Source: an uncultured virus (IMG/VR IMGVR_UViG_3300028557_000030)
Lineage: Duplodnaviria; Heunggongvirae; Uroviricota; Caudoviricetes
DNA: 64,000 nt
Strand: one strand, 5' to 3'
IMG/VR virus record: IMGVR_UViG_3300028557_000030
This document shows positions 2,641 to 61,304 of this stretch, one piece after another. Made by a program: the position numbers and the translations under genes. The first letter of the stretch is position 1, and every line of letters starts with the position of its first letter. The notes under the pieces were generated by a model, which did not search any database, was not told where the DNA came from, and was given only the letters and a program-made list of their open reading frames with translations.

Positions 2641-2685
2641 TTAATTCTTTAATACTGATACCAACAGCGTGGTGGAACCACTTTA

Positions 2686-12935: not shown

Positions 12936-12962
12936 ACTAGTCTCTCTTCCTAATCTTCTCAA

Positions 12963-13820
12963 TTACCGTCGACTTAGCAGGCTCCGAAGTCTAAGCTGAC
13001 AGTGAGGCTTGCCCTGTGATATCCAAAACTCTTCCATCTCAATAAGTATACGGTCATGCCAAAGTTCTTTTACTCGCTTAATACCATATTCTATTATCTG
13101 TTGTTCAATCAAGGCATATCGCCAAGTATTACTTTTAACGTGAATCTTTTCAAATGTATCATCTTCAATAGTAGCATTGGGTCGGCAAAAACAATAACGC
13201 ACCGTAGGGACAATCTGCGCTAACATAATATTTCTATCTGTCAGATCCTGCCAAAACCAGGTATGCCAATCACCTTGGTCGGCGTTCCCCCACTTATCAA
13301 TGTCAAGCCCGCCAATTGCTGAATGCATGATTGCCGGAGACCCAAGTAATACTATATCGTCTTGAGAGTTATTACCCATTGGCCAGCCAGAATATAACAC
13401 ATTGCTTTCAATATTTTTAACTCTCTCAATGATCAATTCTATTTTCATTGAAGGTTCTTGGAAATAAATATCAGGACGAATAATCATGATTGCATCATAT
13501 TCGAAACCACTGTATTTTATTAAATCTAGCCCGCGCCGCCAGCGATGAATCATCTTACTGTTATATCTTGCTAGAGATTTGTTAAACATAGTGCTACTTT
13601 CATAGCAATACCCAGTAAGTTGTTTATCATCCAATGAGTTTTTTACTCTGTCTAACGTAACTTCTTCATCATGTATTATCTTTAACCGATGGCTTTGATG
13701 ATAAGTTCGATCCCAGGTGCTAAAGTAAACATCAATGCAGTCATCATATAAAAAACCCATAGACTTTTTTGCCAAGTCAAAAGTCCGATATTCCCCGCTG
13801 ATTAATACTGCAATTTTCAT
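12963..13820 (-). CDS. putative glycosyltransferase-like protein (SGxxRT/RxD type)
   Basis: MKIAVLISGEYRTF, DVYFSTW, YDAIMIIRPD, QDDIV; ATAAATA at 13826-13832. Confidence 0.55.
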   Translation of the reverse strand: MKIAVLISGEYRTFDLAKKSMGFLYDDCIDVYFSTWDRTYHQSHRLKIIHDEEVTLDRVKNSLDDKQLTGYCYESSTMFNKSLARYNSKMIHRWRRGLDLIKYSGFEYDAIMIIRPDIYFQEPSMKIELIIERVKNIESNVLYSGWPMGNNSQDDIVLLGSPAIMHSAIGGLDIDKWGNADQGDWHTWFWQDLTDRNIMLAQIVPTVRYCFCRPNATIEDDTFEKIHVKSNTWRYALIEQQIIEYGIKRVKELWHDRILIEMEEFWISQGKPHCQLRLRSLLSRR

Positions 13821-13871
13821 ATCACTATTTATTTACTGTCAAGCGTTGATACATAATGCTACCCGCATATT

Positions 13872-34000: not shown

Positions 34001-37000
34001 GCGAGCCAACAATCACTGCGTTTGAATTAAAGTCTAGTGCTGCACCATATTGAGGGTTAAAGCCGTAATCAGTATTGATGTCGTTGACGCTCTGTGCGTA
34101 TGTCCAAGAACCGGGCGATGACACGCTTTCGTTGTTATTTGAGAGGTACTCAAACATATAGACTGCACCGGCGTTTGGATACGAGTCAACAAATCTTGTT
34201 GCATTATTGTCAAACACGGTGTCATTGTTTAGATTTTCATCATCGGTGAAGTCAAAGAAAGTACCTGTATAACGAGTACCGACCGGAGCAGAGACCACGA
34301 TGCTGTTAGTATGATTAGCTTTTACATTGTAGCCAAACTCAGTTGGTCCAAACCCATACGGACACTTGATAGTTTGAGTGTTAGTGTAAAGCTGGATACC
34401 CAATTCGTTCAAGACACTGTTATTAAACACAGACAATACTAGCTTGTCATCGACCCCTGCTAGATTATTGTCGACCAGCTGGATAATGATCTTGTTGTCT
34501 GCTGTTGCAATTGCTCTTACGTTCGTGATTCTAGAATTGTTAATTGCATTCGCTACGGTAGTTGCATTACCTGCAGGCAAGAATGCTGCATATCCGTTGA
34601 TCAAGAGAGTTCGTGTACCAAGAAGATTGCAAGGTGAAGTACCAATTACTACACCATACTTAGCGCCGCCGTTGATATAACTGTAAACCGCGCCTTCTCT
34701 ACCTTCAGTGTCAATCTCGTACGGAGAACCAACAAGAACGTCGGAACCGTATCTAGTAGTTTCCACAGATGTGCCATAATAGATATCGCTTCTTTCAGTG
34801 TAGTCAGAGTTCACTTCTTGTACCATGAAGAATTCATTGCCGCTCACATTTACTATATCACCTACTCGCAGAGCACCGGTATAATAGAACGTGTTCTCAC
34901 CTACTGCATAGTTGTCGTCTTGAACAACAGTGCCGTTGACTGAAACATATAGCTGACTGTCCTGCGGATACATTGTGCAGGATACTGTACTGTTGGTTAG
35001 GGTAATCGGAGTATTAGTAGAACGTGAATTCTTCAATGCGATAGTGCTTCCGACAATATCTTGAATGTAGTAAGTAATGTAAGGACTAATGCCGCTAGTA
35101 CTGAAGCCGGTGCCAGTAAACATGACTGGCATGCCTTCATATAACCCAGAAGCACTGTTGACTGTCAAATAGTTACTAGTTACAGAAACTGAAGAAAGAA
35201 CCTGTTTAGTATCTGTAGGAGTCCACGCTAGCTGGAATGTTTGTGGCTGATAAAGGATGCTAGTAGATTGTGTTTCAAAATTCTGTTCTGCTCTTTGGTA
35301 AATATAAGCTGCTCCCCAATTGTCAATTGATGAGTTTAAGATAACCTTAGGTGCACCGACAGTAAGCACACTACCGTCATAGTTTGTTGCAACTGATTGA
35401 CCAAATGCACTAGCTGAAGTAAGTCCCAGAGCAGTGCAGTCGATAGTAGTAGCGAGCTTGTATGTTGTCTGAGTAGCTGTCCCGAATACGACTCCGCCGG
35501 AAAGTAATGCACTTCCGCTGTTCGATGCGATAAATGAAATTCCTACTTTGTTGTCGATTGCTCCGGCAGCTACCCAATCCGTATCGCCTAATGTAGTGAT
35601 AGTATAAGTTTCACCTACTGTGAGGTAGCCGGCGTTGATTAGGATGTTATCTCTGCGATAAACTGAGACGACCCCTGAATCAGGAATACCGAGATACATC
35701 CAGTTGGCGTCATCAGACATTGCGATGTCATTTACTGAGCCAGAAATGGGCGGCTGATATTCCAACATGTATTTTGAAACAATGCTATCATTGATCACAT
35801 AGACATAAGTTTTGTTTGTACCTGATGTAGGATCATTTGCAGCGATAGCGTAAACGTTCTGTGCATATGCGATAGATGACCCAAACCCTGAACTTACAGC
35901 AGGACTGTATGGAGTTACAGTCTGATATAGTTGTGAGGTATTGCTCATCGGATCATACGAATATCTATAGACTACGTTACTTCCAGCATCTCCAATCAAG
36001 TACCCTGCTTGATCAGTGTATGCAACAGCAGAACCGTAGGTAGACGATTGCGGAATCTGGAATTGTGCTTCGTATTGATAATTGATGCTCTTGCGATAAA
36101 CTGCCCAACCACCGTCGTTATTCTCATCAACCCAAACCGTATTTTTAATGAATTCGTTTTCAGTTAGGTCTAGTGCTTCGATTTCACTAGGGGTTGCTAC
36201 ACGCTGAGATTCAAACGCAAATCCTAATCCTCTACCTTGTACAGAAGATTGATTTGCCCCAACAACAGAAAGATTGATGATGACTTCATTCATATTAACA
36301 ATATCTGTTACGATGTAGTACCCGTCGATGTTTGCGGCAAAATTGATGATTGCCATAGGATCTAGTCTTTGTAGTTCGTGCGGTGCACTGAACGTAACGG
36401 TAGCAGTTTGATTTTGATTATTTCTAACTTGAGTTACTTGTCCGATGGTTTTCCATCTAAAGACGCCCCACTTCTCTTTGAAGTTTGCCATCCAAAGATA
36501 CTCACCTACATAGAAATTCTGAATAGGAATGATCGTGCCGTTGATGTTAGTTGCTGTCGGCAACCCTGCATAGAAATATGTTGACATCTTAACGTCATTG
36601 AAGTTGACGTAACCTGCGCTTGGGTATAGACCTTGAGTCGCATATGGCGTAGTCGTGCTAAGAATATTAGGTGAGCTAATTGCAGTACCGTAGTTGAACA
36701 GGTTAGAAAGAGGAATTTCTTGCATTGCCCCTTCGGTGCTTTCACCGTTAGTCAAACTGACGATAGCAGGATCGCCGGTCATGCTCGTTTGGTTGATTCT
36801 GAATTCTACGAAGTTTTCATTTAGTACTCCGCCGTACTCACCGGACTTGATCGCCCAATTTTCATAGATGTCGTATTGAATTCCACCTTGAGGAAGATTA
36901 GCACCTTTAAATGCACTTAGTGCGTTAAGAGTACCTTTGTTCTTGATTAGATTCTTGTATACTTGAACCTGAGCAGTACTAGTCAAGTCAATGAGTGCGA

Positions 37001-40000
37001 GATAATCTCTTGGTCTATACCCAATCAAAGAGAATGCAAGTAAGTCTGCATCCTTTTCTAGATTAGCCTTTTCTGCGTTGTAATAAAGAGTGCTTTCATA
37101 TGCTCGGGTGCTTGGGTTAGCAAACATTCCCTGCTGAATATCACTATAATTTATGCGCTTCCATTTAGTCTCGTCAAACACGTTAGATGGTTCAATGATC
37201 GTCAATGAAGTCCAATACTTATTCTTGTATCTTACGATTTCATTCTTGGTATACTTTATAAAGGAATTGAATTCTTGGATGTCTGATTGATTAACGATGA
37301 ATCCCCAAGCATTGACCGTGCCGTTCCATTCAGCAGTCTTTTGACCGCGAACGTAGATTCTATTTTGGCGCAACCCAGTGGTCAAGTTGTAGATGATATC
37401 GTTAAACAGTGTCGTGTTATCGAACACGATGCCGTGTTCAAAGTTACTAAAGTTGAACTGAGCATATGCCATTGTATCGCCGCTGTTAAGCGTATGCATG
37501 TGGAACAGTGTATCGTCGCGGTTAACACAAAGATCATTCAGTCTGATCGGATACAAGTTCTGATTTAGAACAAAGTTCTGCTGCTGGATCGTTAATGGTT
37601 GAACGAGCGCACTAGGCTGATTCACATCTAATGTTGTTGCCGCAGGATTTAGCGTGATGACACTGCCATTTGACCATCCTGTTTGTATCCAGTACAGGAA
37701 TTCATAGACCATTTGTGTCCAAGTAATAGGAATGCCATTCTGAACATCATTAAACATCATGCCTTTTGATTCTAGGTATTTACCATACGATAGCAAGAAT
37801 TGAGCAACGTCCTGCGGTGTATAAAACTTAGTGCCATACGGAACGAAAGATATATCAGTAGTATAATTTACAGCAACCTGCACTGTTTGTTTTTCAAGAG
37901 AAAGGGTAGTAAAATTGCCATTAAAAGCCGGATCTAATATTTCAAAGTAAGCTATGTTCTGTGAGTTACCGTATACTGTCCAATAATCTTGGTTCTGTTG
38001 AATGATAACACCGCTGAACAACAGCCGATCAAACGGTTGATTGTCATACAGCAATATTGAGTAGCTTTCGTCTGGAATTAGTAACGAAGCATTAGTGCTA
38101 GACGGTGTTGGCTTTTCCACATAAAATTGCAGCATAGACTTGTCGCTGTAGCCGGCGAGACGATATACCAGTCTAACGTCTAGGTTATCTAGTGTTGTGG
38201 TAATCTCAGTAGTCGCATCAATGCCTTGTTGCTTCTCATAGTCAACAATCCAGTTGATGTAACTAGTCTTTGGAGTGCCATTGCCGTAAACTTCTATATT
38301 GCTAGGTACAAGATGGCTTCTGTCATTGAACAGGTACTGATTAAATTCTGCATTGTACTTGTAGTTGTCTAGGTCTACGCAAAGATTGTAGAACTCGGCT
38401 GGACGAGTTAACGCAAAAATTCTCGCTAAGTCAAACGGGAAAGTCGAGCTACGGCGATAGCTTAACTCAGCAGGACCGTCATCTCCTACAACCCAATCTT
38501 TATTAAAAGTGCTTGGGTTGTAGTTACTGACTATTACTTTGAATGGTGACAGCAAGTCACCGTTCGAATTTACAGGAATGATTGTAGTTAGGCCCGGGCG
38601 AGCTACTAGAGGATTGATGTAGGGGGCGCCATTGTTCCAGATCAAGCCTTGCTCTAGATCATCCCAAAGAATGCCGTTGTCACTAGTGTAGGGTGCAGGA
38701 CCGTAACGAGCAGTCCACCAAGTCGGCATGATAGTGAAGCCAAGCATTTCCCAGGGAGTAGTGTCTGGAGTAGTAGTGTCGTAGTAATACTCATACACCC
38801 CTCTCCAATAACCCTGAAGGATAGGACTGTTGTCTAGTTTACTTGTAGAATTTGTATAGTTGTAAGTAAATTCATTTACTCTTGAGAAGTACTGAGTCTT
38901 ATAGTCAATACGATTTTGCCCAATCCAGTTTAAGAACTGTGTTGAGTAAATTCTTAAGAATTCATCCCATGAATAAGTAGGGTCTCTAAAGAAGCCCGGT
39001 ACAACTTCATATCGTGTGATAGGTGTTTCAGTACTTAATTTGAGATTGTTATAAACTCTCTTTTCGAATTCTAGCAATGCTTGGTCTCTGAAGTCAACAA
39101 GGATGTCAGCTTGAGGAATATAATCACCGTACAACTTAGTATACGACCCATCATGCCCAAGAATGAAATACGTTGGAATCAAATAGTTAGAGTCGAGGAT
39201 TACTTGAGGAATATACTTAGGATAGATTCCTAACTTAGTTGGGGTGTTAGGAACATATGACCCGTAAGTCTGATTATATTCTCTGATAGTTACTATATCT
39301 CCATCTTGCATTGGGATAGTGATAGTAAGTGTAGGTGAATCCGTGCTAACCACATACTCTGTACCAATAAGCAGTTGCTTTTCAACAATGATATTGTCAA
39401 CCGCACGACTTATGTATACGAGAACACCATTATAGTTTGCAGTCTCAAAGTTGTACACATGACTTAGTGGATATTGTGATCTATCTAAATCGTTGTTGAA
39501 TATGTAGGAGTTGCTAATGTACGAAGACTTGTTTGGCAACATGTCTGACCAGAAGAACGCATTGATTTCACTCTTCGCCGCAGTGATTTGATCTAATGCT
39601 TCATCTAGAATTTCTGCTGGAGTATAACGCTGCTCGTAAGGGGTCTTCTGAACTGTATCTACCAACAGTTGCTTGTACTTGACATATTCACGAGAGTTGA
39701 ATTGCAACGCATTAAACAGATTGTACTGCGGATTACGTAGGAATGTTCCTGGTAGCACGAGTGATGCACTATTTTGAATGATCTTGGTGCCGTATGGATT
39801 TAGGTTACCGCAGTCTCTAAAGTTATTTGAACCAAAGATTGTTCCTGTTGTATTAGGCGCATTGATGAAAATATCTTGATACTGTGTTCTAATGTCACCG
39901 GTATTTACAGTAGTTATGTCTGTATTGAGTGGGTTGTTGCTCAAGTTGAGAGGAACTTGATAGTATCCAACCTTGCTGACTTGATCACTTAGCAATAGTA

Positions 40001-43000
40001 CCTGCACTAGTGTGTTTTCATCGATTTGGGTGAACAATTGTATTGTTGTCGTGTTGGTTCCGATCTCTACCGAGTAATCAGAAGGTTCTTGATATACGTT
40101 ATTGATGTATACCTTAACTCTTGGCCAACCCGTCTCATCTGGTTGAAGTGCCGGCAGTGCTGCGATGTCGCATTTAAAGATATATGCTGGTGCAGTCAGT
40201 GAGAAATCAAAATTGAAGATTTGATATTGCTGGCTAGGTGCAATCGCGGTTTCCCAACCTAACAATCTAGTGTATGAAACATCAGACGTTATATTGTAAA
40301 CATACCCAGTGTTAACTTTTTGATTGAATGGGTTACCGCCATAGACGTACGAGAATGTGTCAGAGTTCAGAGAGACATCAAAACTAACGTCACCTAGGTT
40401 AGATACGGAACTGTAACGAATTGGGAAGCCCAACACCGGATCTTTTGCGCCTGACCCTAATGTGTAGTTGAATAATTTACAACCTGTAAAGGTCGTACTT
40501 GGGTATACAACAGGATCACTGAAGCTGATACCGTTTCCATCTAAAATGTCGAATTCAGGAGCTTGGTTTAATTGTGTCTTCTGCTGTGACTGCATCCAGT
40601 CGATGCCGTCGAACCAATAACTCAGCCCTGCGTTTGCGAAGCCGCGTGTCACTACAGTTTGTGTATCGGGAGCTACTATCCCGTCTTCAGCCACGATAAG
40701 AGTTATTACCGGCTGCGTTGACGGTGCGACAACCGAAAAGTTAGAAACATAAATCTTGTTTCTTACATTCACATCATTGTCAGCAGCAAAGATTACACGA
40801 GCGCCAGGGAATAAACTATAGTTATTAACAGTAGTATCGCTAGCAACAAGCGTAGTGGTACCGCCCGTAACCGCAATAGCAACTGGCCAAGTTACCACTA
40901 ATGTGTAGTTTGTTCCATCAGAGGATAAACTATTGATTTGGCTGTTTGTTGGTAGATAATTCTTTTGATCTCCGACAAACATATATTGCGCCAGTGTTCC
41001 GGTAATACTACTGACTGGAACAGTAACAGTAGTTGAAACTTGATATGCAGTGCCGGTGCCTGTTCCGGGACTTACACAGAGAACAACATTACCTACTGCA
41101 TAAGTAACACCGGTAGTTCCGGCAACAGTATTCCAATTGGTAGTACCTAATACTGCAATTTCGTAATATCTTCCGGCTACAAAACTCTCATCGTTGATTG
41201 GAGACCCAGATACACTGGTTACTGTTGCAGCGTTTGTAGTTGAGTAAACTTCAATGTCTGGGTAATATGCTAGTGACCCAGGAACAGTTGACAATGCGTC
41301 GGTGTTAGTGGTATCAATGAAGTCTACTGGATCTTTACCTACTGCACCAGAATTGAATAGCTTTAAGTTTGGGTAGAACTCAATGATAGGTCTTGCAGCT
41401 TTGTGAGAAATATTTGCATATGTTGTCACAATAGTAGGATCATCGTTGTATGTTGCAGTCGCAGTAATTACATCGATGTGGAACCAGCGGTTACTTCTTG
41501 CCCATGCATTCTTGTTAATTGAGTTACGTGCAATGGTAATATAGTCAGCTTGAACAGGAATATCAAGGCTAATATCCCAATTACCGATATCCCAGTCTAA
41601 GATATCCCATGCGTTATATTCACCTTCACTGAAATCTTCCGGTACTACGAGTGTTTCGACAGGTACTAGATCAATTGAGGTTCCTACGCCCTGGACGTAG
41701 TATTCTCCGGTAAGATAGCTTGTGGGGATAACGTCACCGTTAAAACTTACTTTCAACCCATTAGTAAACACAACCCCGTTAGGAGATGTATAGTTTGTGC
41801 GACCTAGAATTTGTGTATCGACATTGATAGTATTATTCAAGTTATCTTCGATGAGACGAATAATACCTACTTTATTTGGATTGGTTCCGTCTTGATAGTA
41901 GAGAACGTCGAGCGGTGCGCTGATATACGGAATCAGTTCTAGGTTGTTCGAATCGTTAAGATAGAAAGGTCTATTATTCCATTCCGTGCCGTAAACGGGC
42001 AAGATGCGAGTGTCTGACGGAATTGCTCCGTCTGGAATCAATCTTATGATTGGGTCGTTTGGGTCTCCGATATATGTAACTACAAAGAAGGTGTTTCCTA
42101 CATTTACATTAAACCCATCTTCATACAGACCCTGATTGACGTTGACTGTCATTGTACCCGAAGCCGCAGTCAACGTGATTGGGTCCCCGTTCAATGCAGT
42201 TGAAATAGTGAATGACGTTGAGTTCGGAATACTTTGAATGAAGTAAACTTGTCCTATGTTAATACCACCAAAGCTGGCTCCAGTGAATGTTAATGTGCCG
42301 CCCACAATCAATCCGCTTGTGCTACCTGAAGCTAAAGTAAATGCGCTAGGGTCGCAACTATCAACAGTGAGTGTGATAGGTGCAACTAAATCAGGAGCAT
42401 TGGTATCGTATTCGACTTCATCAAAGTAAGAAGAAATATATGCAATTGGTTGCGGGGTGTTATAGAAAGCAACACGCAATCCTAACAAAGATGTGATTCC
42501 GTCGATTCCCTCGAAAGAGTTTACGAATTGACCGTTGATGTCATCAAAGGAGCTAGTGCTAATCACATCAGTGTTAACTGTAGTGGGGAAGATATATTCG
42601 TCTTGTGCGTTACGTTGCGGAACTTCAAAAGTAACAAGACCCGAAGTGGCGCCGTTATTGGTTACACCGTATACGTCGCGCACTGATTGATTTGGCTGGG
42701 TTGGGCTATTTCCAGAAACGCCCGGAGCACCCTGAATCCAAAACGGGGAGGTCTGGTCTACTTCAAAAGTATACGTGCCGCCTCTCAATAATGTGATTGC
42801 AGGATTAGTATTTGATCTGGTAGAACCTTCTCTAACGATACTATACGTGTTAGTGTTGTCCGTAACAACAAATGCTTCTCTTGAGAATACAGTCGATGCT
42901 GCAACCTGAACAGAAGGAGGCCCTTCCGGTAACCAATAATACTGATTGAAGTTGATTAGGGCGTCTAGATTAGTGAACGAATCCCAGGAATAGAATTGAC

Positions 43001-43337
43001 TTGTAAACAATCTGTCATTGTTTTCAGTTATTCCACCTTCCATCTTGAGAGCATCGATGATTCCAGGATAAGTGATGAAATCTGTAGCAGCAGATTCGTT
43101 TGGTTTAGTAAAGACAACACTAGGATCTAGCTGATAGTCTGCGCGAGTTTTAGTAGGTTCAGTGACGTATGCATCTGTTGCATTGACACCGGTTCCAAAT
43201 GTACTACCAACATAGCCCTGGATGTTTGCTACACTCGGTGGATTTACGAGTTGATCCAGGGTTGCTGCCAAAAACTGTGCGTTGGGAGGGGTTTGAAAAA
43301 CCTCTGGAAGAAAATTAAGTGTTCTTACTCTAGCCAT
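25065..43337 (-). CDS. giant (6090 aa) virion structural protein, baseplate-associated
   Basis: Single 18.3-kb ORF directly after the gp6-like gene. About 15 copies of a GxPxxFxG...GxxYY(V/I)...FT(I/V)S module; FG-GAP/propeller-like GAP...GAVY repeats; YVNETKPYHVVIK motif; ATAAATA at 43343-43349. Confidence 0.75.
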   Translation of the reverse strand: MARVRTLNFLPEVFQTPPNAQFLAATLDQLVNPPSVANIQGYVGSTFGTGVNATDAYVTEPTKTRADYQLDPSVVFTKPNESAATDFITYPGIIDALKMEGGITENNDRLFTSQFYSWDSFTNLDALINFNQYYWLPEGPPSVQVAASTVFSREAFVVTDNTNTYSIVREGSTRSNTNPAITLLRGGTYTFEVDQTSPFWIQGAPGVSGNSPTQPNQSVRDVYGVTNNGATSGLVTFEVPQRNAQDEYIFPTTVNTDVISTSSFDDINGQFVNSFEGIDGITSLLGLRVAFYNTPQPIAYISSYFDEVEYDTNAPDLVAPITLTVDSCDPSAFTLASGSTSGLIVGGTLTFTGASFGGINIGQVYFIQSIPNSTSFTISTALNGDPITLTAASGTMTVNVNQGLYEDGFNVNVGNTFFVVTYIGDPNDPIIRLIPDGAIPSDTRILPVYGTEWNNRPFYLNDSNNLELIPYISAPLDVLYYQDGTNPNKVGIIRLIEDNLNNTINVDTQILGRTNYTSPNGVVFTNGLKVSFNGDVIPTSYLTGEYYVQGVGTSIDLVPVETLVVPEDFSEGEYNAWDILDWDIGNWDISLDIPVQADYITIARNSINKNAWARSNRWFHIDVITATATYNDDPTIVTTYANISHKAARPIIEFYPNLKLFNSGAVGKDPVDFIDTTNTDALSTVPGSLAYYPDIEVYSTTNAATVTSVSGSPINDESFVAGRYYEIAVLGTTNWNTVAGTTGVTYAVGNVVLCVSPGTGTGTAYQVSTTVTVPVSSITGTLAQYMFVGDQKNYLPTNSQINSLSSDGTNYTLVVTWPVAIAVTGGTTTLVASDTTVNNYSLFPGARVIFAADNDVNVRNKIYVSNFSVVAPSTQPVITLIVAEDGIVAPDTQTVVTRGFANAGLSYWFDGIDWMQSQQKTQLNQAPEFDILDGNGISFSDPVVYPSTTFTGCKLFNYTLGSGAKDPVLGFPIRYSSVSNLGDVSFDVSLNSDTFSYVYGGNPFNQKVNTGYVYNITSDVSYTRLLGWETAIAPSQQYQIFNFDFSLTAPAYIFKCDIAALPALQPDETGWPRVKVYINNVYQEPSDYSVEIGTNTTTIQLFTQIDENTLVQVLLLSDQVSKVGYYQVPLNLSNNPLNTDITTVNTGDIRTQYQDIFINAPNTTGTIFGSNNFRDCGNLNPYGTKIIQNSASLVLPGTFLRNPQYNLFNALQFNSREYVKYKQLLVDTVQKTPYEQRYTPAEILDEALDQITAAKSEINAFFWSDMLPNKSSYISNSYIFNNDLDRSQYPLSHVYNFETANYNGVLVYISRAVDNIIVEKQLLIGTEYVVSTDSPTLTITIPMQDGDIVTIREYNQTYGSYVPNTPTKLGIYPKYIPQVILDSNYLIPTYFILGHDGSYTKLYGDYIPQADILVDFRDQALLEFEKRVYNNLKLSTETPITRYEVVPGFFRDPTYSWDEFLRIYSTQFLNWIGQNRIDYKTQYFSRVNEFTYNYTNSTSKLDNSPILQGYWRGVYEYYYDTTTPDTTPWEMLGFTIMPTWWTARYGPAPYTSDNGILWDDLEQGLIWNNGAPYINPLVARPGLTTIIPVNSNGDLLSPFKVIVSNYNPSTFNKDWVVGDDGPAELSYRRSSTFPFDLARIFALTRPAEFYNLCVDLDNYKYNAEFNQYLFNDRSHLVPSNIEVYGNGTPKTSYINWIVDYEKQQGIDATTEITTTLDNLDVRLVYRLAGYSDKSMLQFYVEKPTPSSTNASLLIPDESYSILLYDNQPFDRLLFSGVIIQQNQDYWTVYGNSQNIAYFEILDPAFNGNFTTLSLEKQTVQVAVNYTTDISFVPYGTKFYTPQDVAQFLLSYGKYLESKGMMFNDVQNGIPITWTQMVYEFLYWIQTGWSNGSVITLNPAATTLDVNQPSALVQPLTIQQQNFVLNQNLYPIRLNDLCVNRDDTLFHMHTLNSGDTMAYAQFNFSNFEHGIVFDNTTLFNDIIYNLTTGLRQNRIYVRGQKTAEWNGTVNAWGFIVNQSDIQEFNSFIKYTKNEIVRYKNKYWTSLTIIEPSNVFDETKWKRINYSDIQQGMFANPSTRAYESTLYYNAEKANLEKDADLLAFSLIGYRPRDYLALIDLTSTAQVQVYKNLIKNKGTLNALSAFKGANLPQGGIQYDIYENWAIKSGEYGGVLNENFVEFRINQTSMTGDPAIVSLTNGESTEGAMQEIPLSNLFNYGTAISSPNILSTTTPYATQGLYPSAGYVNFNDVKMSTYFYAGLPTATNINGTIIPIQNFYVGEYLWMANFKEKWGVFRWKTIGQVTQVRNNQNQTATVTFSAPHELQRLDPMAIINFAANIDGYYIVTDIVNMNEVIINLSVVGANQSSVQGRGLGFAFESQRVATPSEIEALDLTENEFIKNTVWVDENNDGGWAVYRKSINYQYEAQFQIPQSSTYGSAVAYTDQAGYLIGDAGSNVVYRYSYDPMSNTSQLYQTVTPYSPAVSSGFGSSIAYAQNVYAIAANDPTSGTNKTYVYVINDSIVSKYMLEYQPPISGSVNDIAMSDDANWMYLGIPDSGVVSVYRRDNILINAGYLTVGETYTITTLGDTDWVAAGAIDNKVGISFIASNSGSALLSGGVVFGTATQTTYKLATTIDCTALGLTSASAFGQSVATNYDGSVLTVGAPKVILNSSIDNWGAAYIYQRAEQNFETQSTSILYQPQTFQLAWTPTDTKQVLSSVSVTSNYLTVNSASGLYEGMPVMFTGTGFSTSGISPYITYYIQDIVGSTIALKNSRSTNTPITLTNSTVSCTMYPQDSQLYVSVNGTVVQDDNYAVGENTFYYTGALRVGDIVNVSGNEFFMVQEVNSDYTERSDIYYGTSVETTRYGSDVLVGSPYEIDTEGREGAVYSYINGGAKYGVVIGTSPCNLLGTRTLLINGYAAFLPAGNATTVANAINNSRITNVRAIATADNKIIIQLVDNNLAGVDDKLVLSVFNNSVLNELGIQLYTNTQTIKCPYGFGPTEFGYNVKANHTNSIVVSAPVGTRYTGTFFDFTDDENLNNDTVFDNNATRFVDSYPNAGAVYMFEYLSNNNESVSSPGSWTYAQSVNDINTDYGFNPQYGAALDFNSNAVIVGSPNFQPTTIGGEAIVYFNASGVNDWAVYRQSSAVVDINRIQNTQLFGAITNETLVNLDYIDPLQNKILGAARENLDFVTGVDPATYNVSYNTESGPVWGGAHVGRLWFDTSNVRWVNYHQNDVVYNSSYWGEVFPGSDVAVYSWISSFIPPQNYQGPGVPYDVNQYVVNNVINSSNVVVPIYYFWVRNTNVIFSQTGKTLSDSVVQSYIANPRASGISYMAPLLPNTFGIYNSGAYINADDSVFHVGFSNSQSEDTIHNEYSLIRANFQDDFLPGSPNINATHVEGGIHGDIGQQYIYGAPYSLYAKLLDSLAGCTPSGTVVPDPFLPAAVQSGVLVRPSQSFFYERLEAIKNYLTYANDIIINYPIFELREELSFLFTTGEFYNTPDYWSYVDWWAPGYNSGVKPSVQVSVFAELSTLNVAVGTVARVVQNISGRWEVYIQTTAGVWNRIGLQNGTLQFKNDLWNYAAGMLGWDGNFFDTNSFDLYPSEETRSIIRALNEQIYVSDLLIHRNKSLILLFEYIQAETIESQNYLPWLNKTSLADVSHVIRELLPYEVYKTDDQTFLSGYVNETKPYHVVIKDFLFKYTKTDVFEGDVTDFDVPAAYNSTDQQFISPQLVYTIDTSGIYEYNAQDPIWQTNAYSQWFQNFGLSVTGQPGFPITTLNSFLTRSTRYILVDNAHGFPANGVITIGTEQIGYSYVDRSLNIVGGLARGINQTTPVDHIPGEQIFIDLPAVILLDSGRGYTNPPKVTAVIDTTKYPVPRELAVFEAVLGTDSVVQINVVNPGSGYAVLPTLEIEPALTVYFSNTDINSRFNTINIYAPDLRTGDLVRYRAGIGAGAGRLADGQWYYINVLESTTISVIGLYSTYSNAINDQDRIALFDNGTATGMSLNLGAKASIITSSAPIRENIITLKFDRTTYGSKIVDWQADSFYGAYFAGSYYSVDTTASSSGVSLESTHPDINTLLASADGATFEITDVQNQETLTWSSLVRNVEETINEGSGFPDADRYLIRLVLSDSTEPNASGSTIGFYVGMPIKFTGGLAGTGITSGTTYYVAKIINETDFSIEDANGTVIALNSITIEVPVLCYTGQVVDTAIVSVNYPGILTATATSESNNAITVPLTALGTGGTNGFYPGLTVFFTGTDAQFAAFENKIIANEVYYINTIIDQQTFTISEFKNPTFTNVLQNIADTTLVLPITATVTETIGASDIVVLDSNANFNFNDPVIFNTMVIAGSEVSTFGNIVSGTVYYVSEVVDGSPTQIKISETKSGVNFDLSTVAAATDTSAVATNQSNVIPLADATGELTMNVALPVSPGQVNGQQFKFYQTSGQYTDKSGAISNLIETIVYATIAAPVNKVAVESTTNFYTNLPVQFEVATGNLSTGTTYYVLDYSGKSAGGSTLPNLEVQVQQTLSAGNQLICYTGTDTSDLYLNMPITFSGTGLGGLIISDQYFIKSIVNSTTFTVSELPGGTTTTLSDDAGFMVGTGYPYITVSASPGSSPVSLITSTTASALDQVNLTNPTFDISYILGGYRAIIDNGGSGFAINNVITISGTEVDGLSPKNDIIITVSEIDANGVITRVSPAGQPPNLELSYYLKVISATQFEVYENSLMTIPVSGNTFPYEGLTSTTATAASNDRITVGDSSVFDLNDAVVFSGDIFASEIVLGQTYYIKSLPTSTTVTLSAVPAGTTLNISTDTSGSMTMAKPGSFAYLPQPFFFQPSIIRYNNRLYECLVSNNDPEFIFGKWQLVDPGSRNINAMDRVIGYYQPTANMPGVDLTQLFEGVSYPNPIYYGNAFEPSKQFEVDTNLQDQPFDEVLPSTYTVQGADFPYGYAPEELVAGNVRDSIAITVTTRPGTNWDAAEYANVGYSVVSLEIVPESQTQTAYSFDRVVQVPAQVAVQVLSATTGLGTTLSPTEYTVDWVNKTITLDNPISFTPSLETLRIDVYEVGNGDQLVKSSTHNDPIRTNSNTGFNEIYLNCNYSDSIFNGGGVIQPGSFDVVVTAVATSSVTNEITCDDASKFSIGEAITFTGTLFGNIQPNTTYYIKSVSNITESITVSLSYDPITGIAGPTALLTTDTGTMYINLTYGSDVPWTAPYVMHNGTLLVEGRSSQVTGTSASTNAIITNSTAGMTVGMPVTFSDTMFGNVVEPMTRYYVTSIIDSTNFTISTSPSGPNLTLTDATGGAYYITNDFAFGLQPNNIQATLIFATDSYTNDNDYLCYSVFGEGSPITYGYTIPQRQEFVANGTEVSFVLSNFVGEDNPINAVVEIDGVRQNSSAYNISFVTNSVTFFAVPAANSIVSVTSYNKTGRQYLNTQYGISGNIGSAFATFTVGTTTNTSGTWDQDDPDVQSWDQDSPSVVSWDEQESWLSLSSGSTGVLTVNDPIIFDAPTIGGIVAGQTYYVIEILDSTDFVISTTPGGTAFQLTNDSGAMTANANALIVAEITNVNNNITPPLATTLATATDGGTDEITVTSTAGFIAGATVEFRGTAFGGVATDGTVYFVNSVVDGTHFTIEDADGDIVPLSTATGTIEVTVGGQSAVRVTTAIQTGFTTNTLVRIDGVEGSTQLNNNTYYVRVINNYTFDLYNQPYTADLNGVNYPVTTVSNYVSGGFIWRQGSFYLVNTYATATSVTGQITVNSTAGLVYGTPVYFTQSGNQNGDNLMGGLIQGTEYYVRDFIVGGAITVSSTRGGPATALTNDTGYINVTQWQQTNVDRLWVTINGYRVPSSKLKLNDVNEVSILSSINPGDIVIITSMMPSATPDQQVYLNLVDYAGNPAVYSANDETRTWLTRTLGILDTVMYVGDVTSLTQQVVQNVTAPIAVAGYYNIGLDSDKRTLTGVTVYNNTTGQNISNDYISIILVDAAPILKIASGSWIAAGNSLTITSLEGNTVYVNGELIRFSNVDFSANTLSGLERGADGTGAQLIIPEYTDVIGLLGINRMSDIDYNLVWNSYVYNPIDGDPLQISQTVPAEFLNT

Positions 43338-59126: not shown

Positions 59127-59690
59127 ATGACATCACCTAGCAAAGCCAAAGGCTCATCGTTCGAACGAGAAGTTGCAACCTTCTTGTCAAAGACATATGA
59201 CGAAAGTTTTATCAGGGCTCCCGGCTCAGGTGCATACATTGGCGGTAAGAATCAATCCCGCAAACAGTATTTGGATGAGGGTCAGATTCGTAGCTTCAAG
59301 GGCGACATCGTTCCGGGCGTGACTTTCACTAAATTCAACGCAGAATGTAAGTCATATGCAGACTTCCCTTTTCATCTTCTTTTATCCGGGGACTGCAAAC
59401 AAATCGACAGTTGGCTAGACCAACTGATGGCTGTAGCAGAAACTGATGATTGCAACGTGCTATTCATGAAGTTTAATCGTAAAGGCAAGTATGTTGCTGT
59501 ACAAGCAAAGTGTACTTGGGTCACAGACAACTTCATTTACTACAGTTCCGCTAAGTTCGGGGACTGGATCATCATCGAATTTCAACACTTCTTCAAGCTC
59601 AACAAAGACCTTCTTAAAGTTTACTCAGGCTCACCTAATACAAACCTTGACACCGCGTCTACAGCTAACGTACTAACGCTCAAAACCTAA
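59127..59690 (+). CDS. Holliday junction resolvase (Hjc-like PD-(D/E)xK nuclease)
   Basis: KGSSFEREVA...SGA...GDI...AECK. Confidence 0.8.
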   Translation: MTSPSKAKGSSFEREVATFLSKTYDESFIRAPGSGAYIGGKNQSRKQYLDEGQIRSFKGDIVPGVTFTKFNAECKSYADFPFHLLLSGDCKQIDSWLDQLMAVAETDDCNVLFMKFNRKGKYVAVQAKCTWVTDNFIYYSSAKFGDWIIIEFQHFFKLNKDLLKVYSGSPNTNLDTASTANVLTLKT

Positions 59691-59699
59691 ACAAAACCA

Positions 59700-60200
59700 C
59701 AGAATCCTACATAGCTGTTTGGTCGGGGTTGCTCGACTCTCCTTGAGGACGCATGGAATACTGCGAACGGAATCTGGAGCCGAAGGTGCATTCCTTCAAA
59801 AATGCATAGGTGTTTACATCTATGGAATACCGATAGGGCCCTCGTTAGGTTAAGCGAACCCTAAATGAGTCTGTGTCGTACTCTGTCTTGAGAACACAGA
59901 ACATGCGTTGCCGAGGAATCGAAAGATAGCCTCACTACAGTCCCAGTAAACTTTACAGGGCAACCGGTAGCGTCAATCAGCATCAAAAGCTAGGTTGACG
60001 GGGAATAGACAGCAAGGGTGACGGGCCATGGCAATGTCCTAGACCATTGGTAGTGCTACATAGCACTACCATGGATTCTGAACCGGCAAGTATCTTCAAC
60101 AAGTTATCTTAGACATTACCATTAAAGAGAATGAAAAAGGATATACCGAAACGAACGAAGTGAGTAAGGTATAAGTTGTCCGAAGGACAACTCTGAATGA
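59700..60200 (+). ncRNA. unassigned large structured non-coding RNA (candidate)
   Basis: About 500 nt without an ORF, tiled with stems, a GAAA tetraloop, G-U pairs favouring the plus strand and a closing helix (59700-59707 with 60073-60080). Confidence 0.6.
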
Positions 60201-60252
60201 GAGCTATGATAGAAGCCAAAAAAAGAGAGAACTAAATGAATAGTTCCCTCTA

Positions 60253-60483
60253 TTAGAAATACGGAAGTTGTGACTTCTTTGTTATCTCAAGATGTTCTTC
60301 GATAATCTTGTTTATGTCTGCTCTTTCTTGAAAAGACATATTCAGAATATCTTCGTACGTCGCTCCCCCTCGCATGTGCCATGCCATTTCTAGGGCTGAC
60401 TTTTTGATTCCTGAGACATCGTTTTCGTAGTTATCAAACAGCTTCTTAATGTCTTCAGGGGGTGATCTGAGGAGCGTTAGTCG
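60253..60483 (-). CDS. gp51-like/tail assembly chaperone extension, probably reached by -1 frameshift
   Basis: 76-codon frame RLTLLRSPPEDIKKLFDNYE...MAWHMRGGATYEDILNMSFQER...LPYF*; the first ATG is at codon 33 (60387). Confidence 0.7.
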   Translation of the reverse strand, partial: RLTLLRSPPEDIKKLFDNYENDVSGIKKSALEMAWHMRGGATYEDILNMSFQERADINKIIEEHLEITKKSQLPYF

Positions 60484-61304
60484 AAAAAATCCGTTGGGTT
60501 CAGTGTGATTGTCTGATCGTATTCATGCTCGCAACTTCCGCAAGTGATCTTCATTGGTTTAATCTCACTAGCTTGACGTAGTTCCGAACTACGATCTCGG
60601 ATAGTAACATAAACATTGCGGTCACAGTGTCTTAGGAAATCAAGAATAAAATCCTTCTGATCTACTTTGATTGTAGGAGTCTGAATATATTCAATTGCTT
60701 GGCACAGCAAATCCATAGTAAGATCGGTGATTTTCTGTAATGACTCCTTCATCAGTTTGCTGCGATCATCTTCGTTTTCGATAGAATCAATCTGAGAAGC
60801 TGCTCTTTGGAATTCAAATTGTTTCATTGATGCTGCGTTGATTTCTTTAAAATTAACGGACTTTAATTTTATTTTAAGATCACCTGCGCTGAGTTCTTCT
60901 GAGAAATCAGGACTGCTGATTGACGAAAGAATGCCTACTAGGTTTATTTTATAAGTAGATGTTTCCTCACAGTTTGGGCAGCTTGACGTAAGATCCATCT
61001 CACCTGAAGAAGATGAGGCTGCTTTTATAGCAATAAGAATAGCGTCAAGGTCAATATTAGGCACTGCCCATGGGTCCTTGATATTGGGGACACAACTTGT
61101 GATCAAGTCTGCAATTGCAGTTCCGTTAAACAACGCATCCGGTGTACGAGCAGTGATTTCATCAATAGCAGTCATCGGATATACTGGAATCTCGCCGATT
61201 TCGGGCATGTCCAGTGCTCCATCCGGATAGCCCTGACCATTTGATGGTAGCTTCATATATACAGATGGTCTTCTGAAATACTGTTTTAGTGGGTTGTTGT
61301 CCAT
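60477..61304 (-). CDS. baseplate hub assembly/tail chaperone protein (T4 gp26-like)
   Basis: LPSNG...VYPMTAIDE, two CxxC motifs (CPNC, CGSC), C-terminal DFF; adjacent to the tape measure gene. Confidence 0.75.
   Translation of the reverse strand: MDNNPLKQYFRRPSVYMKLPSNGQGYPDGALDMPEIGEIPVYPMTAIDEITARTPDALFNGTAIADLITSCVPNIKDPWAVPNIDLDAILIAIKAASSSSGEMDLTSSCPNCEETSTYKINLVGILSSISSPDFSEELSAGDLKIKLKSVNFKEINAASMKQFEFQRAASQIDSIENEDDRSKLMKESLQKITDLTMDLLCQAIEYIQTPTIKVDQKDFILDFLRHCDRNVYVTIRDRSSELRQASEIKPMKITCGSCEHEYDQTITLNPTDFFD

What the first reader, a model, noticed from the sequence alone, without database searches (positions are those of the whole stretch)
59700..60200. Unassigned ~400-500 nt highly structured RNA downstream of the Holliday junction resolvase
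Seen: a non-coding gap in an otherwise densely coding genome, tiled with helices. These include GTCGGG/CTCGAC (59722-37), GAAGG/CCTTC (59782-97), TAGGTG/CATCTA (59807-22), TAGGG/CCCTA (59834-63) and TCTGTGT/ACACAGA (59870-900). GTTGCC/GGCAAC (59907-64) encloses GAGG/CCTC and an ATC-GAAA-GAT tetraloop. Also present are CGTCAATC/GGTTGACG (59971-60000), TGGTAGTGCT/AGCACTACCA (60048-71) and AGTTGTCC/GGACAACT near 60174-92. CAGAATCC (59700-07) pairs with GGATTCTG (60073-80) to close the domain. G-U pairs indicate the plus strand. I cannot match it to RNase P, tRNA, SRP, 6S or intron cores. Inference: a large phage ncRNA or ribozyme, perhaps linked to the gp47-gp46-resolvase transcript or to replication priming.
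Basis: partly seen in the sequence, partly recalled or inferred. Interest (0 to 1): 0.78.

Follow-up and report, generated by a model that had tools for sequence, protein, structure and literature searches.

The report
New large pseudoknotted jumbo-phage RNA
The gene-free gap holds a real gene for an intricately folded non-coding RNA of roughly 480 bases that a whole lineage of uncultured lake jumbo phages keeps at one fixed spot behind their DNA-recombination genes; it matches no catalogued RNA family and its job is still unknown.

Summary
Window 59715-60192 (+ strand) encodes a conserved structured RNA. It has a ~380-nt core, a variable A/U-rich linker and a 3' module of two hairpins. It lies directly after the stop codon of a PDDEXK_15 resolvase-like gene, in the order gp47, gp46, resolvase, RNA, then convergent baseplate genes.

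Relatives occur in at least 120 IMG/VR contigs, always in this synteny. None was found in one genome each of 185,579 prokaryote species, and none in 50,697 cultured-phage records.

Covariation is strong. In the central domain 95% of cells pair, against 33-40% in slid controls, and 35 of 54 pairs show compensatory changes.

No Rfam 15 family matches, and I found no paper describing it.

Two single-stranded 8-10-nt motifs (60026-35 and 60082-90) change in concert so as to stay identical, which suggests two sites for one lineage-specific partner. Function is unknown. My best guess is a trans-acting scaffold or decoy RNA.

A complete 360-kb relative also carries GOLLD, a permuted tmRNA and 43 tRNAs. 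Rak2-like jumbo phages hold a large RNA at the same synteny, but I could not detect homology to it.

The parts
59127..59690 (+). Upstream gene: PDDEXK_15 nuclease. It is a homologue of the PA5oct and Phosso proteins annotated as Holliday-junction resolvase. It is the last ORF of the + strand block gp55-like(?), gp47, gp46, resolvase.
   Evidence: Pfam PF24608, E 3.2e-24. tblastn gives 46.9% identity to PA5oct gp342 and 38.8% to the Phosso 'Holliday junction resolvase'.
59715..60092 (+). Conserved RNA core, about 380 nt. A 5' domain is followed by a four-way junction, two pseudoknots and a 3' domain.
   Evidence: blastn conservation in 39 of 40 protein-retrieved loci. Alignments A1, A2 and A3. 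Covariation.
59722..59737 (+). Hairpin H2 (GTCGGG/CTCGAC).
   Evidence: 6 of 6 pairs have changes on both sides (helix 2).
59739..59779 (+). H3 (CUCC 59739-42 with GGAG 59776-79). It encloses the near-invariant UUGAG and hairpin 59750-53/59762-65.
   Evidence: 97% paired (helices 3 and 4). CTCCTTGAG is nearly invariant.
59782..59824 (+). Variable peripheral hairpins: the GAAGG/CCTTC insertion (subclade only) and hairpin 59804-11/59817-24.
   Evidence: Alignment A2. MI pairs 59808-23, 59810-21 and 59812-19.
59828..59969 (+). Four-way junction closed by H6 (UACCG 59828-32 with CGGUA 59965-69). It holds H7 59834-38/59859-63 (plus 59842-45/59854-57), H8 59865-67/59902-04 with H9 59870-76/59894-900, and H10 59907-12/59959-64 with the variable H11 59913-16/59930-33.
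   Evidence: helices 1-4, 6 and 7 are 71-100% paired, with many compensatory changes.
59883..59888 (+). Pseudoknot 1, 5' strand (CUGUCU in the H9 loop). It pairs with AGACAG 60007-12.
   Evidence: 6 pairs, all 100% paired in 54 of 54 sequences; 5 pairs change on both sides (helix 5). Top MI pairs.
59941..59944 (+). Pseudoknot 2, 5' strand (UCCC inside H10). It pairs with GGGA 60001-04.
   Evidence: 98.5% paired; 3 of 4 pairs change on both sides (helix 8).
59971..60000 (+). Hairpin H12 (CGUCAAUC/GGUUGACG, plus 59980-81/59989-90).
   Evidence: 92.5% paired; 8 of 10 pairs compensatory (helix 9).
60001..60012 (+). Hub strand GGGAAUAGACAG. It supplies the 3' strands of both pseudoknots.
60023..60039 (+). 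Hairpin Hx. Its loop carries motif copy 1 (60026-35, CCAUGGCAAU).
   Evidence: The stem is only weakly supported (helices 17-18).
60049..60070 (+). Hairpin H13 (GGUAGUGCU/AGCACUACC), followed by the invariant AUGG.
   Evidence: 100% paired (helix 19).
60082..60090 (+). Motif copy 2 in the single-stranded 3' tail of the core (ACCGGCAAG). It changes in concert with copy 1.
   Evidence: Among 19 distinct motif combinations, the variable base N is the same in 16, the 5-nt core in 12 and both in 10. Shuffled means are 5.1, 3.8 and 0.9, and 0 of 2000 shuffles reach the observed values.
60093..60141 (+). A/U-rich linker, variable in sequence and length.
60142..60173 (+). GA-rich hairpin. Outer stem UAUACC/GGUAUA; inner part AC-GA-AC-GAA-GU-GA-GU, i.e. 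tandem G-A flanking two covarying pairs and a GAA loop.
   Evidence: Inner pairs AU:29/GC:14 and CG:39/UA:5 (helix 23). Family listing. The motif GARCGWAGYGA occurs once in the 64-kb window and once in the 360-kb relative.
60174..60192 (+). Terminal 8-bp hairpin (AGUUGUCC-GAA-GGACAACU), followed by CUCUGAA/CUCUUAA. It is the likely 3' end or a weak terminator.
   Evidence: 95.3% paired; 8 of 8 pairs compensatory (helix 24).
60214..60251 (-). Intrinsic terminator of the convergent minus-strand genes (44-aa ORF 60253-60387; T4_baseplate gene 60477-61304). It is not part of the RNA.
   Evidence: Terminator scan. It also explains the spurious sub-threshold CsrB hit. Pfam PF12322.

Best explanation
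Shown: window ~59715-60192 (+) is a gene for a conserved, single-copy, highly structured non-coding RNA. It is specific to one lineage of uncultured freshwater jumbo phages that are distant relatives of the PA5oct and Rak2-like phages. Its core is a compact fold. A four-way junction is locked by two pseudoknots that share one hub strand (60001-12), and the junction strands contain long invariant runs. A variable linker and a 3' module of a GA-rich hairpin plus a terminal hairpin follow.

Inferred: the RNA is made as the 3' extension of the gp47-gp46-resolvase transcript, since there is no room for a promoter of its own and no sign of one. It ends at the terminal hairpin and may be released by processing in the A/U-rich flanks.

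Inferred, and my committed guess at mechanism: it acts in trans as a folded scaffold or decoy. It presents two copies of one single-stranded motif (N-C-(AU)-GGCAA in a hairpin loop, N-C-GGCAA in the 3' tail) to two units of a lineage-specific partner. That partner could be a dimeric phage or host protein, or two copies of an RNA such as a tRNA anticodon loop. The partner's specificity would drift, and both sites would follow it.
For: Reality and strand:
- Fold z = -5.17 on +, against -3.48 on -.
- 44 of 86 RNAalifold pairs are compensatory.
- Whole RNA: 83.3% of cells paired, against 32-41% when slid; 78 of 115 pairs change on both sides; 0 of 500 shuffles reach this.
- Central domain: 95.1% against 33-40%; 35 of 54 pairs.
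- Many G-U pairs occur on the + strand.

Distribution:
- 39 of 40 loci fetched through the neighbouring protein hold the RNA. The one miss (L029) has only 29 bases beyond the gene.
- All 80 loci fetched with flanks show the same gene order wherever flank DNA exists.
- The RNA is single-copy in a complete 360,683-bp relative and in a 92%-complete one.
- There were 0 hits in genome contigs.

Co-transcription:
- The stop-to-RNA distance has a median of 40 nt.
- 0 of 60 upstream regions hold TATAAATA.
- No sigma-70-like site was found.

Two-site idea:
- The two motifs stay identical through C/C, G/G, U/U and A/A at N.
- They also stay identical through GGCAA, GGCAU, GGCAG, AGCAG, GUAAU and AUAAU cores.
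- No complementary partner exists within the RNA or within 2.5 kb.
Against: There is no direct evidence of a discrete transcript. Contigs from RNA-type libraries touch the core and also the upstream gene, and they cannot show ends or levels.

No partner has been identified. Concerted identity could instead reflect alternative pairings with a strand I failed to recognise, since wobble or short pairings would escape.

The motif parsing used regular expressions. At least two rows (L061, L098) were mis-parsed, and the shuffles do not control for relatedness.

The extreme conservation of junction strands fits a ribozyme or a ligand-binding RNA equally well.
Confidence: 0.45

Rival explanations
1. 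It is a ribozyme, either self-processing or trans-acting on phage RNAs. The junction and pseudoknot core would form an active site.
For: The size, the double-pseudoknot compaction and the invariant unpaired junction runs (AACAUGCGUUG, CAACCGGURGCG, AAUGAGU, GGAAYACCGA) resemble those of large ribozymes. The RNA would have to be released from a longer transcript. Relatives carry 43 tRNAs and a two-piece tmRNA, all of which need processing.
Against: No Rfam ribozyme family scores even at E <= 10, in the window or in 20 divergent homologues. No conserved cleavage-site signature was recognised. The host already supplies RNase P.
Confidence: 0.15
2. It is an RNA-only homo-oligomeric assembly of the GOLLD/ROOL/OLE type: an 'ornate' RNA that forms cages or dimers.
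For: The same phage lineage can carry GOLLD. RF02032 scores 205 bits in the complete relative G002. Cryo-EM shows that such RNAs form homo-oligomers (PMC12286853; I saw only the abstract in a search listing). Palindromic CCAUGG/GCCAUGGC occurs in the Hx loop, and CCAUGG follows H13. Repeated identical motifs would suit symmetric contacts.
Against: The palindrome is not kept in all members. L034/35 and the L048 group lack it in the loop. There is no sequence or CM similarity to GOLLD or ROOL. GOLLD is present in only 1 of 6 relatives' records, whereas this RNA is universal.
Confidence: 0.12
3. It is a cis-acting 3' UTR element of the recombination operon. It would act as an mRNA stabiliser, processing signal or terminator, or as a barrier between convergent transcription units.
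For: It lies directly after the last ORF, at a convergent junction, and ends in hairpins.
Against: A 380-nt double-pseudoknot core with invariant junction strands, better conserved than the flanking proteins, is far more than such roles need. For comparison, the baseplate protein is 43-65% identical and the tape-measure-like protein ~25% across most of these loci. The terminator of the opposing genes is a separate hairpin.
Confidence: 0.12
4. It is a replication-origin or primer RNA. A folded transcript would form a persistent hybrid, as ColE1 RNA II does (that comparison is recalled, not checked).
For: It is adjacent to recombination and replication genes. It is a long folded transcript.
Against: The gene orientation is convergent, not divergent. 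Covariation preserves RNA pairing, G-U pairs included, rather than a DNA motif. No iterons or A/T-rich unwinding repeats were seen in the alignment. I ran no skew analysis.
Confidence: 0.04
5. It is a distant member of the multi-copy large pseudoknotted RNA of Rak2-like jumbo phages. That would make it one resolvase-adjacent superfamily, with function unknown in either case.
For: The synteny is the same. In phage ph0011, CBB and SE_PL one copy lies between the endonuclease VII (resolvase) gene and the baseplate genes. By eye, both share GUUGC ... [pseudoknot strand] ... AAAC..AGRGCAACC, followed by the pseudoknot partner 3' of the helix.
Against: No detectable homology was found. My CM R1 finds nothing in the ph0011 genome or locus, even with filters off. 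nhmmer finds nothing. A CM of the Rak2-type 3' subdomain (R2) finds nothing in the window. The order of the shared short motifs differs. This RNA is single-copy, against 4-5 copies.
Confidence: 0.12

Closest known systems
GOLLD (RF02032) and ROOL: large 'ornate' RNAs of phages and prophages
   Same: It is a large (>350 nt), multi-helix, pseudoknotted orphan RNA carried by phages. It also comes from lakes. A complete relative of this phage carries a bona fide GOLLD inside its tRNA cluster.
   Different: No CM match was found. It lies at a different locus: not among tRNAs, but after the resolvase gene. It is about half the size of GOLLD. It is universal in its lineage, whereas GOLLD is in only 1 of 6 relatives' records. 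Its oligomeric state is unknown.
Multi-copy ~450-600-nt pseudoknotted RNA of Rak2-like/Asteriusvirus jumbo phages
   Same: It is found in jumbo phages of the same broad group (gp46 37-44% identical). One copy sits at the syntenic spot between the resolvase and baseplate genes. It is a large pseudoknotted RNA. By eye there is a similar GUUGC/GCAAC helix with an internal strand pseudoknotted to the strand 3' of it.
   Different: Homology is not detectable by CM in either direction or by nhmmer. There are 4-5 copies per genome with their own promoter and terminator, against one copy here with no promoter of its own.
Protein- or RNA-sequestering decoy RNAs (CsrB/RsmZ, 6S) and T-box-type tRNA-reading leaders: what it may work like, from my own knowledge
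   Same: Repeated single-stranded recognition motifs are displayed on a folded scaffold. In every variant a changeable triplet is followed by an invariant A (GGC-A, AGC-A, GUA-A, AUA-A, GCA-A). This recalls a T-box specifier codon plus purine.
   Different: No CM match to CsrB (15.8 bits against a gathering score of 71, and on the other strand), 6S or T-box. There are only two motif copies. No downstream gene is available to regulate. Binding was not tested.

Membership tests
Any Rfam 15 family (4227 covariance models) | Score at or above the family's gathering threshold | tested here: not met
   In the window only the tmRNA at 2274-2681 passes. In 59500-60500 at E <= 10 there are only three unrelated sub-threshold hits. 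In 20 divergent homologues, 3 unrelated hits appear and no family recurs.
GOLLD (RF02032) | Match to the GOLLD covariance model | tested here: not met
   No hit in the window. As a positive control, the same model scores 205.4 bits in relative G002.
Bacterial RNase P RNA (I also considered a permuted form) | Match to the RNase P covariance models; P4 and the CR-I/CR-V motifs | tested here: not met
   No RNase P model appears even at E <= 10. The ACAGAAC at the 5' end that prompted the idea is absent from many family members. The CR motifs were recalled from memory and were not formally scanned.
Group I / group II introns | Intron covariance model match and interruption of a host gene | tested here: not met
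   No model hit. No + strand ORF resumes downstream; the next genes are on the - strand.
Riboswitch / cis-regulatory leader | A downstream gene on the same strand under its control | tested here: not met
   The RNA follows the last + strand ORF and faces a convergent operon.
omega-RNA / guide RNAs of TnpB-IscB-type nucleases | Adjacent RuvC/HNH-type RNA-guided nuclease; HEARO-type model match | tested here: not met
   The neighbour is a 187-aa PDDEXK_15 protein, homologous to phage resolvases. There is no HEARO or omega-RNA hit.
Rak2-like jumbo-phage multi-copy RNA (earlier scan notes) | Sequence or covariance-model similarity | tested here: not met
   R1 against the ph0011 genome and locus gives none in the RNA. 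nhmmer gives none. R2, built from 22 Rak2-type copies, gives none in the window's RNA.
Rak2-like jumbo-phage multi-copy RNA (earlier scan notes) | Location between the resolvase and baseplate genes | tested here: met
   ph0011, CBB and SE_PL each have a copy beside the endonuclease VII gene. The window has the same order.
Rak2-like jumbo-phage multi-copy RNA (earlier scan notes) | Four to five copies per genome | tested here: not met
   There is one R1 match in the complete 360-kb relative and one in the 333-kb relative, against 283 places in 70 records for the Rak2 type.

The most novel reading that the evidence does not exclude
This RNA and the multi-copy RNAs of Rak2-like phages are divergent members of one ancient jumbo-phage superfamily of resolvase-adjacent 'ornate' RNAs, built on a shared pseudoknot core. 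The member studied here works as a machine that reads two copies of a specific partner, possibly the anticodon loops of a particular tRNA. In most lineages that would be tRNA-Gly(GCC), re-targeted in lineages where the triplet has become AGC, GUA or AUA. It would do this through two co-evolving codon-like triplets, each followed by an invariant A. That would make it a new kind of tRNA-sensing or tRNA-sequestering RNA used during phage takeover.
Probability: 0.1. Interest if true: 0.9.

Novelty: new variant of a known kind. Interest (0 to 1): 0.7.

Why it matters
Large RNAs with complex tertiary folds are rare. Each new class found so far (RNase P, group I/II introns, GOLLD, ROOL, OLE, raiA) has proved to be a ribozyme, an RNP core or an unexpected RNA-only assembly. 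This candidate has several things in its favour:
- at least 120 natural sequence variants;
- clean covariation;
- two proven pseudoknots;
- a size (~380-nt core) well suited to cryo-EM;
- an unusual evolutionary signature, two distant motifs that change together so as to stay identical, which gives a concrete handle for finding its partner.

The RNA also shows that GOLLD-bearing lake jumbo phages carry further large RNAs. Together with the syntenic RNA of Rak2-like phages, it suggests that a big structured RNA beside the resolvase gene may be a general feature of this group of jumbo phages.

Tried and rejected
1. Permuted RNase P idea, prompted by ACAGAACCC at the 5' end and a permuted tmRNA in the window. 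Rejected: no model hit, and the motif is absent from many members.

2. Rejected (helix 1: 58.8% paired).

3. Expression from public runs. 17 DNA runs (lake, freshwater, groundwater) hold half or more of the sampled words. Three RNA-type libraries hold 6-22% of the words. Their contigs, some from relatives, lie on 59822-60083 and also on the gp46 gene. One of the three is probably DNA. Contigs cannot show ends, strand or level, so this gives no verdict on expression.

4. A cis partner for the twin motifs. There is no consistent 7-8-mer complement within the loci. No alignment column is complementary to the variable base N; the best is 0.65.

5. A 14-nt exact repeat of the tail (60078-91) at 29880-93, inside the giant minus-strand ORF. 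It looked like an antisense target. However, a 500-nt query against this window is expected to give 0.24 such matches. The observed 14-, 13- and 12-mers fit chance, and the complete relative has no equivalent. Rejected as chance.

6. Cultured relatives:
- blastn of the RNA against 50,697 phage records: no match.
- R1 against the whole PA5oct, Phosso, Vibrio 2.275.O and ph0011 records: none.
- Filters off on their loci: only junk.
- nhmmer: none.
- The PA5oct ncRNA001-004 reported in PMC7318152 (passages read, Table 1) lie elsewhere in that genome. R1's scan of the whole record gave no hit.

7. GA-hairpin as a general phage signal. Rejected: it is unique in the window and in the 360-kb relative.

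8. GOLLD co-occurrence as a rule. It is present in only 1 of 6 relatives' records; 4 of those are 36-76% complete.

9. Coding potential. The longest ORF is 44 aa. Insertions and deletions in the family are not multiples of three.

10. Literature. Four searches found no description of this RNA: jumbo phage / noncoding RNA / covariation / structured RNA; PA5oct / non-coding RNA; GOLLD / ROOL / bacteriophage / new class; GOLLD / tmRNA / phage / freshwater. One 2026 preprint on noncoding clusters (10.64898/2026.10.21.760802, term search only) does not mention phage, GOLLD or jumbo. Its supplements could not be seen.
Full report
**What is there**

Between the stop codon of a + strand gene at 59690 and the first minus-strand ORF at 60253 there is no ORF longer than 44 aa.

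- The upstream gene (59127-59690) is a PDDEXK_15 nuclease (Pfam E 3.2e-24).
- Its cultured-phage homologues are annotated as Holliday-junction resolvases: PA5oct gp342 at 46.9% identity and Phosso at 38.8%.
- It follows a Metallophos (gp47/SbcD-like) gene and an SMC_N/AAA_23 (gp46/SbcC-like) gene.
- Downstream, on the other strand, lie a conserved 44-aa ORF, a T4_baseplate gene and their own intrinsic terminator at 60251-60214.
- The + strand of the gap folds far better than shuffles: -175.5 kcal/mol, z -5.17, 0 of 100 shuffles as good. The - strand gives z -3.48.

**Is it conserved?**

Using the resolvase-like protein as bait, I fetched 40 IMG/VR loci at 62-100% protein identity.

- blastn with the gap found it directly downstream in 39 of them. 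The one miss (L029) has only 29 bases of DNA beyond the gene. Two others are cut by contig ends.
- At 62% protein identity the RNA core is still about 71% identical in nucleotides.
- In all 80 loci fetched with 2.5-kb flanks, the order gp46, resolvase-like gene, RNA, 44-aa ORF (-), baseplate (-), tape-measure-like (+) is kept wherever flank DNA exists. L077 and L106 carry an extra 0.4-0.7 kb after the RNA.
- In those loci the baseplate protein is mostly 43-65% identical to the window's and the tape-measure-like protein mostly ~25%. The RNA keeps 10-12-base invariant runs.
- The same pattern (without its first A) gave 0 hits in one genome for each of 185,579 prokaryote species.
- blastn of the gap gave no hit in 50,697 cultured-phage records.
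- Public runs that hold the sequence are lake, freshwater and groundwater metagenomes.

**Structure**

RNAalifold on 22 sequences predicted 86 pairs, 44 of them with compensatory changes. I then wrote a helix map from the window sequence plus mutual information. I counted it on 54 sequences that are <88% identical (A2).

| Measure | Whole RNA | Central domain 59825-60015, realigned as A3 |
|---|---|---|
| Cells paired | 83.3% | 95.1% |
| Cells paired when the 3' partners are slid 1-3 columns | 32-41% | 33-40% |
| Pairs changed on both sides | 78 of 115 | 35 of 54 |
| Same count in slid controls | 31-48 | 8-16 |
| Shuffles reaching the observed values (paired cells, both-side changes, covariation score) | 0 of 500 | 0 of 500 |

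The numbers for the variable hairpins (59804-24 and the outer 3' stem) are depressed by MAFFT misalignment.

The architecture, from 5' to 3':
- A 5' domain: hairpin 59722-37, then CUCC/GGAG 59739-79 with the near-invariant UUGAG.
- A variable hairpin.
- A four-way junction closed by UACCG/CGGUA (59828-32 with 59965-69). It holds H7, H8/H9 and H10/H11.
- Hairpin H12.
- A hub strand, 60001-12.
- A loosely supported hairpin Hx (60023-39).
- The invariant hairpin H13 (60049-70).
- A single-stranded tail.

Two pseudoknots tie the hub strand back into the junction:
- CUGUCU (the H9 loop, 59883-88) pairs with AGACAG (60007-12). It is paired in all 54 sequences at all six positions, and five positions change on both sides.
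- UCCC (inside H10, 59941-44) pairs with GGGA (60001-04). It is 98.5% paired, and 3 of 4 positions are compensatory.

Frequent G-U pairs fix the + strand.

**The 3' module**

After a linker that varies in sequence and length (60093-60141), every member has two elements:
- A hairpin whose inner part reads GA-NC-GAA-GN-GA. Tandem G-A flanks two pairs that covary: AC/GU, GC/GC, GU/AC.
- An 8-bp hairpin with a GAAG/GUAG-type loop, in which 8 of 8 pairs are compensatory. It is followed by CUCUUAA-like sequence.

The GA motif occurs once in the 64-kb window and once in a 360-kb relative. It therefore belongs to this RNA and is not a general phage signal.

**Expression context**

- The conserved RNA begins a median of 40 nt (range 10-141) after the stop codon.
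- None of 60 distinct upstream regions holds a T4-type late promoter box within 250 nt.
- No sigma-70-like site was found.

I therefore infer co-transcription with the recombination genes, ending at the terminal hairpin. This is not shown. Contigs of RNA-type libraries give no verdict.

**An unexplained signature**

The loop of Hx (60026-35, CCAUGGCAAU) and the tail (60082-90, ACCGGCAAG) carry the same word, N-C-(AU)-GGCAA.

- Across 78 unique sequences the two copies change together so as to remain identical. N is C/C, G/G, U/U or A/A. Cores are GGCAA, GGCAU, GGCAG, AGCAG (L146, one step from GGCAG relatives), GUAAU and AUAAU.
- Among 19 distinct combinations, N agrees in 16, the core in 12 and both in 10. 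Shuffled means are 5.1, 3.8 and 0.9, and 0 of 2000 shuffles reach the observed values. The regular expressions mis-parse at least two rows, and the shuffles ignore relatedness.
- The two N positions are the second-strongest mutual-information pair of the 3' domain.
- No strand within the RNA, or within 2.5 kb, is complementary to them in a consistent way.
- In all variants a changeable triplet is followed by an invariant A.

Two identical sites that drift in concert point to a common partner acting in trans. The partner could be a dimeric protein or two copies of an RNA. This is the basis of my preferred, still weak, mechanism.

**What it is not**

- No Rfam 15 family reaches threshold in the window, apart from a permuted tmRNA at 2274-2681.
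- At E <= 10 the region gives only three unrelated hits. The best, CsrB, is caused by the opposing terminator.
- 20 divergent homologues give no recurring family.
- A covariance model of the central domain (R1, 192 positions) scores 204.5 bits on the window and finds no second copy there.
- R1 finds one copy each in a complete 360,683-bp relative (G002, terminal repeats) and in a 333-kb relative. It finds none in PA5oct, Phosso or Vibrio phage 2.275.O.

**Context in a complete relative**

G002 encodes the following:
- 43 tRNAs, including one with a CUA anticodon;
- a permuted tmRNA;
- a freshwater-2 motif;
- a GOLLD RNA (205 bits) inside the tRNA cluster.

GOLLD was not found in five other relatives' records, one of them 92% complete. 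The positive control is. GOLLD is therefore optional in this lineage, while the new RNA is universal.

**Relation to earlier notes of this scan**

Earlier notes describe an undescribed multi-copy 450-600-nt pseudoknotted RNA in Rak2-like jumbo phages. I checked part of this.

- In E. coli phage ph0011, an unannotated stretch lies between the endonuclease VII (resolvase) gene and the baseplate genes. This is the same synteny as here. It holds a ~460-nt element with a promoter-like and a terminator-like site.
- blastn finds the element at 283 places in 70 records, four to five per genome.
- In phages CBB and SE_PL the best copy also abuts the endonuclease VII gene.
- Homology to the present RNA is not detectable. 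R1 against the ph0011 genome and locus, nhmmer, and a model of the Rak2-type 3' subdomain (R2, from 22 copies) against the window all gave nothing in the RNAs.
- By eye, both share a GUUGC/GCAAC helix whose interior strand is pseudoknotted to the strand just 3' of it, and the run AAAC..AGRGCAACC. I treat this as a lead only.

**Verdict**

This is a real, new family of large pseudoknotted phage RNA. It is confined, as far as these collections show, to one uncultured lake jumbo-phage lineage. Its function is unknown. My ranking of the explanations:
- trans-acting scaffold or decoy with two partner sites: 0.45;
- ribozyme: 0.15;
- RNA-only assembly: 0.12;
- cis 3' UTR element: 0.12;
- replication primer: 0.04.

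Whether it is a distant Rak2-type homologue (0.12) is a separate question about membership.

Noticed in passing
window 2274-2681 (-): A permuted (two-piece) tmRNA gene. RF04321 scores 85.5 bits and alpha_tmRNA 58.3 bits. ARAGORN missed it in the window but called the orthologue in relative G002, with tag peptide ANDNSTMDIALAA. An alpha-type tmRNA may hint at the host group.
   Followed up: partly
window 25065-43337 (-): A single giant ORF of about 6090 codons, within the structural gene block. I did not analyse it.
   Followed up: no
L179 13168-13631 (= G002 253168-253631): The complete 360-kb relative carries a GOLLD RNA (205.4 bits) inside a cluster of 43 tRNA genes. ARAGORN calls a tRNA-Lys at L179 13232-13303, inside the GOLLD match.
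   Followed up: partly
L177 16380-16454 and L168 2250-2325 (relative G002): A tRNA with anticodon CUA (an amber-suppressor type, which ARAGORN labels Pyl) and a freshwater-2 RNA motif (RF02980, 61 bits).
   Followed up: no
L162 8411-9424 (Sinorhizobium phage Phosso 229759-230772): An unannotated ~1-kb gap beside the homologous resolvase gene. It folds strongly (-318 kcal/mol on one strand). On the resolvase strand it contains GAGCGAAUAGCGAAGUGAACG followed by a hairpin with a GAAG loop, which resembles the 3' module described here. R1 and nhmmer find no core homology.
   Followed up: partly
L187 11880-12350 and 12440-12510 (E. coli phage ph0011): The Rak2-type RNA copy beside the endonuclease VII gene is partly annotated as a 'hypothetical protein' (12128-12418). 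About 100 nt after its terminator lies ACGAAUGAAAUGAGUUA, a GA-rich run like the one in this family's 3' hairpin.
   Followed up: partly
window 8823-15311: A block of sugar- or cofactor-type enzymes in a phage: NTP_transferase, a 3-dehydroquinate-synthase-like protein, a short-chain dehydrogenase and a radical SAM protein.
   Followed up: no
window 29880-29893 and 60078-60091: A 14-nt exact direct repeat of the RNA's tail lies inside the giant minus-strand ORF, whose mRNA would be complementary to the tail. It is within chance for a 500-nt query and is absent from the complete relative.
   Followed up: yes
NC_071039.1 75169-75666 (PA5oct gp342): This protein is annotated 'RusA-like Holliday junction resolvase', but its homologue here matches Pfam PDDEXK_15. 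I did not check the RusA label itself.
   Followed up: no
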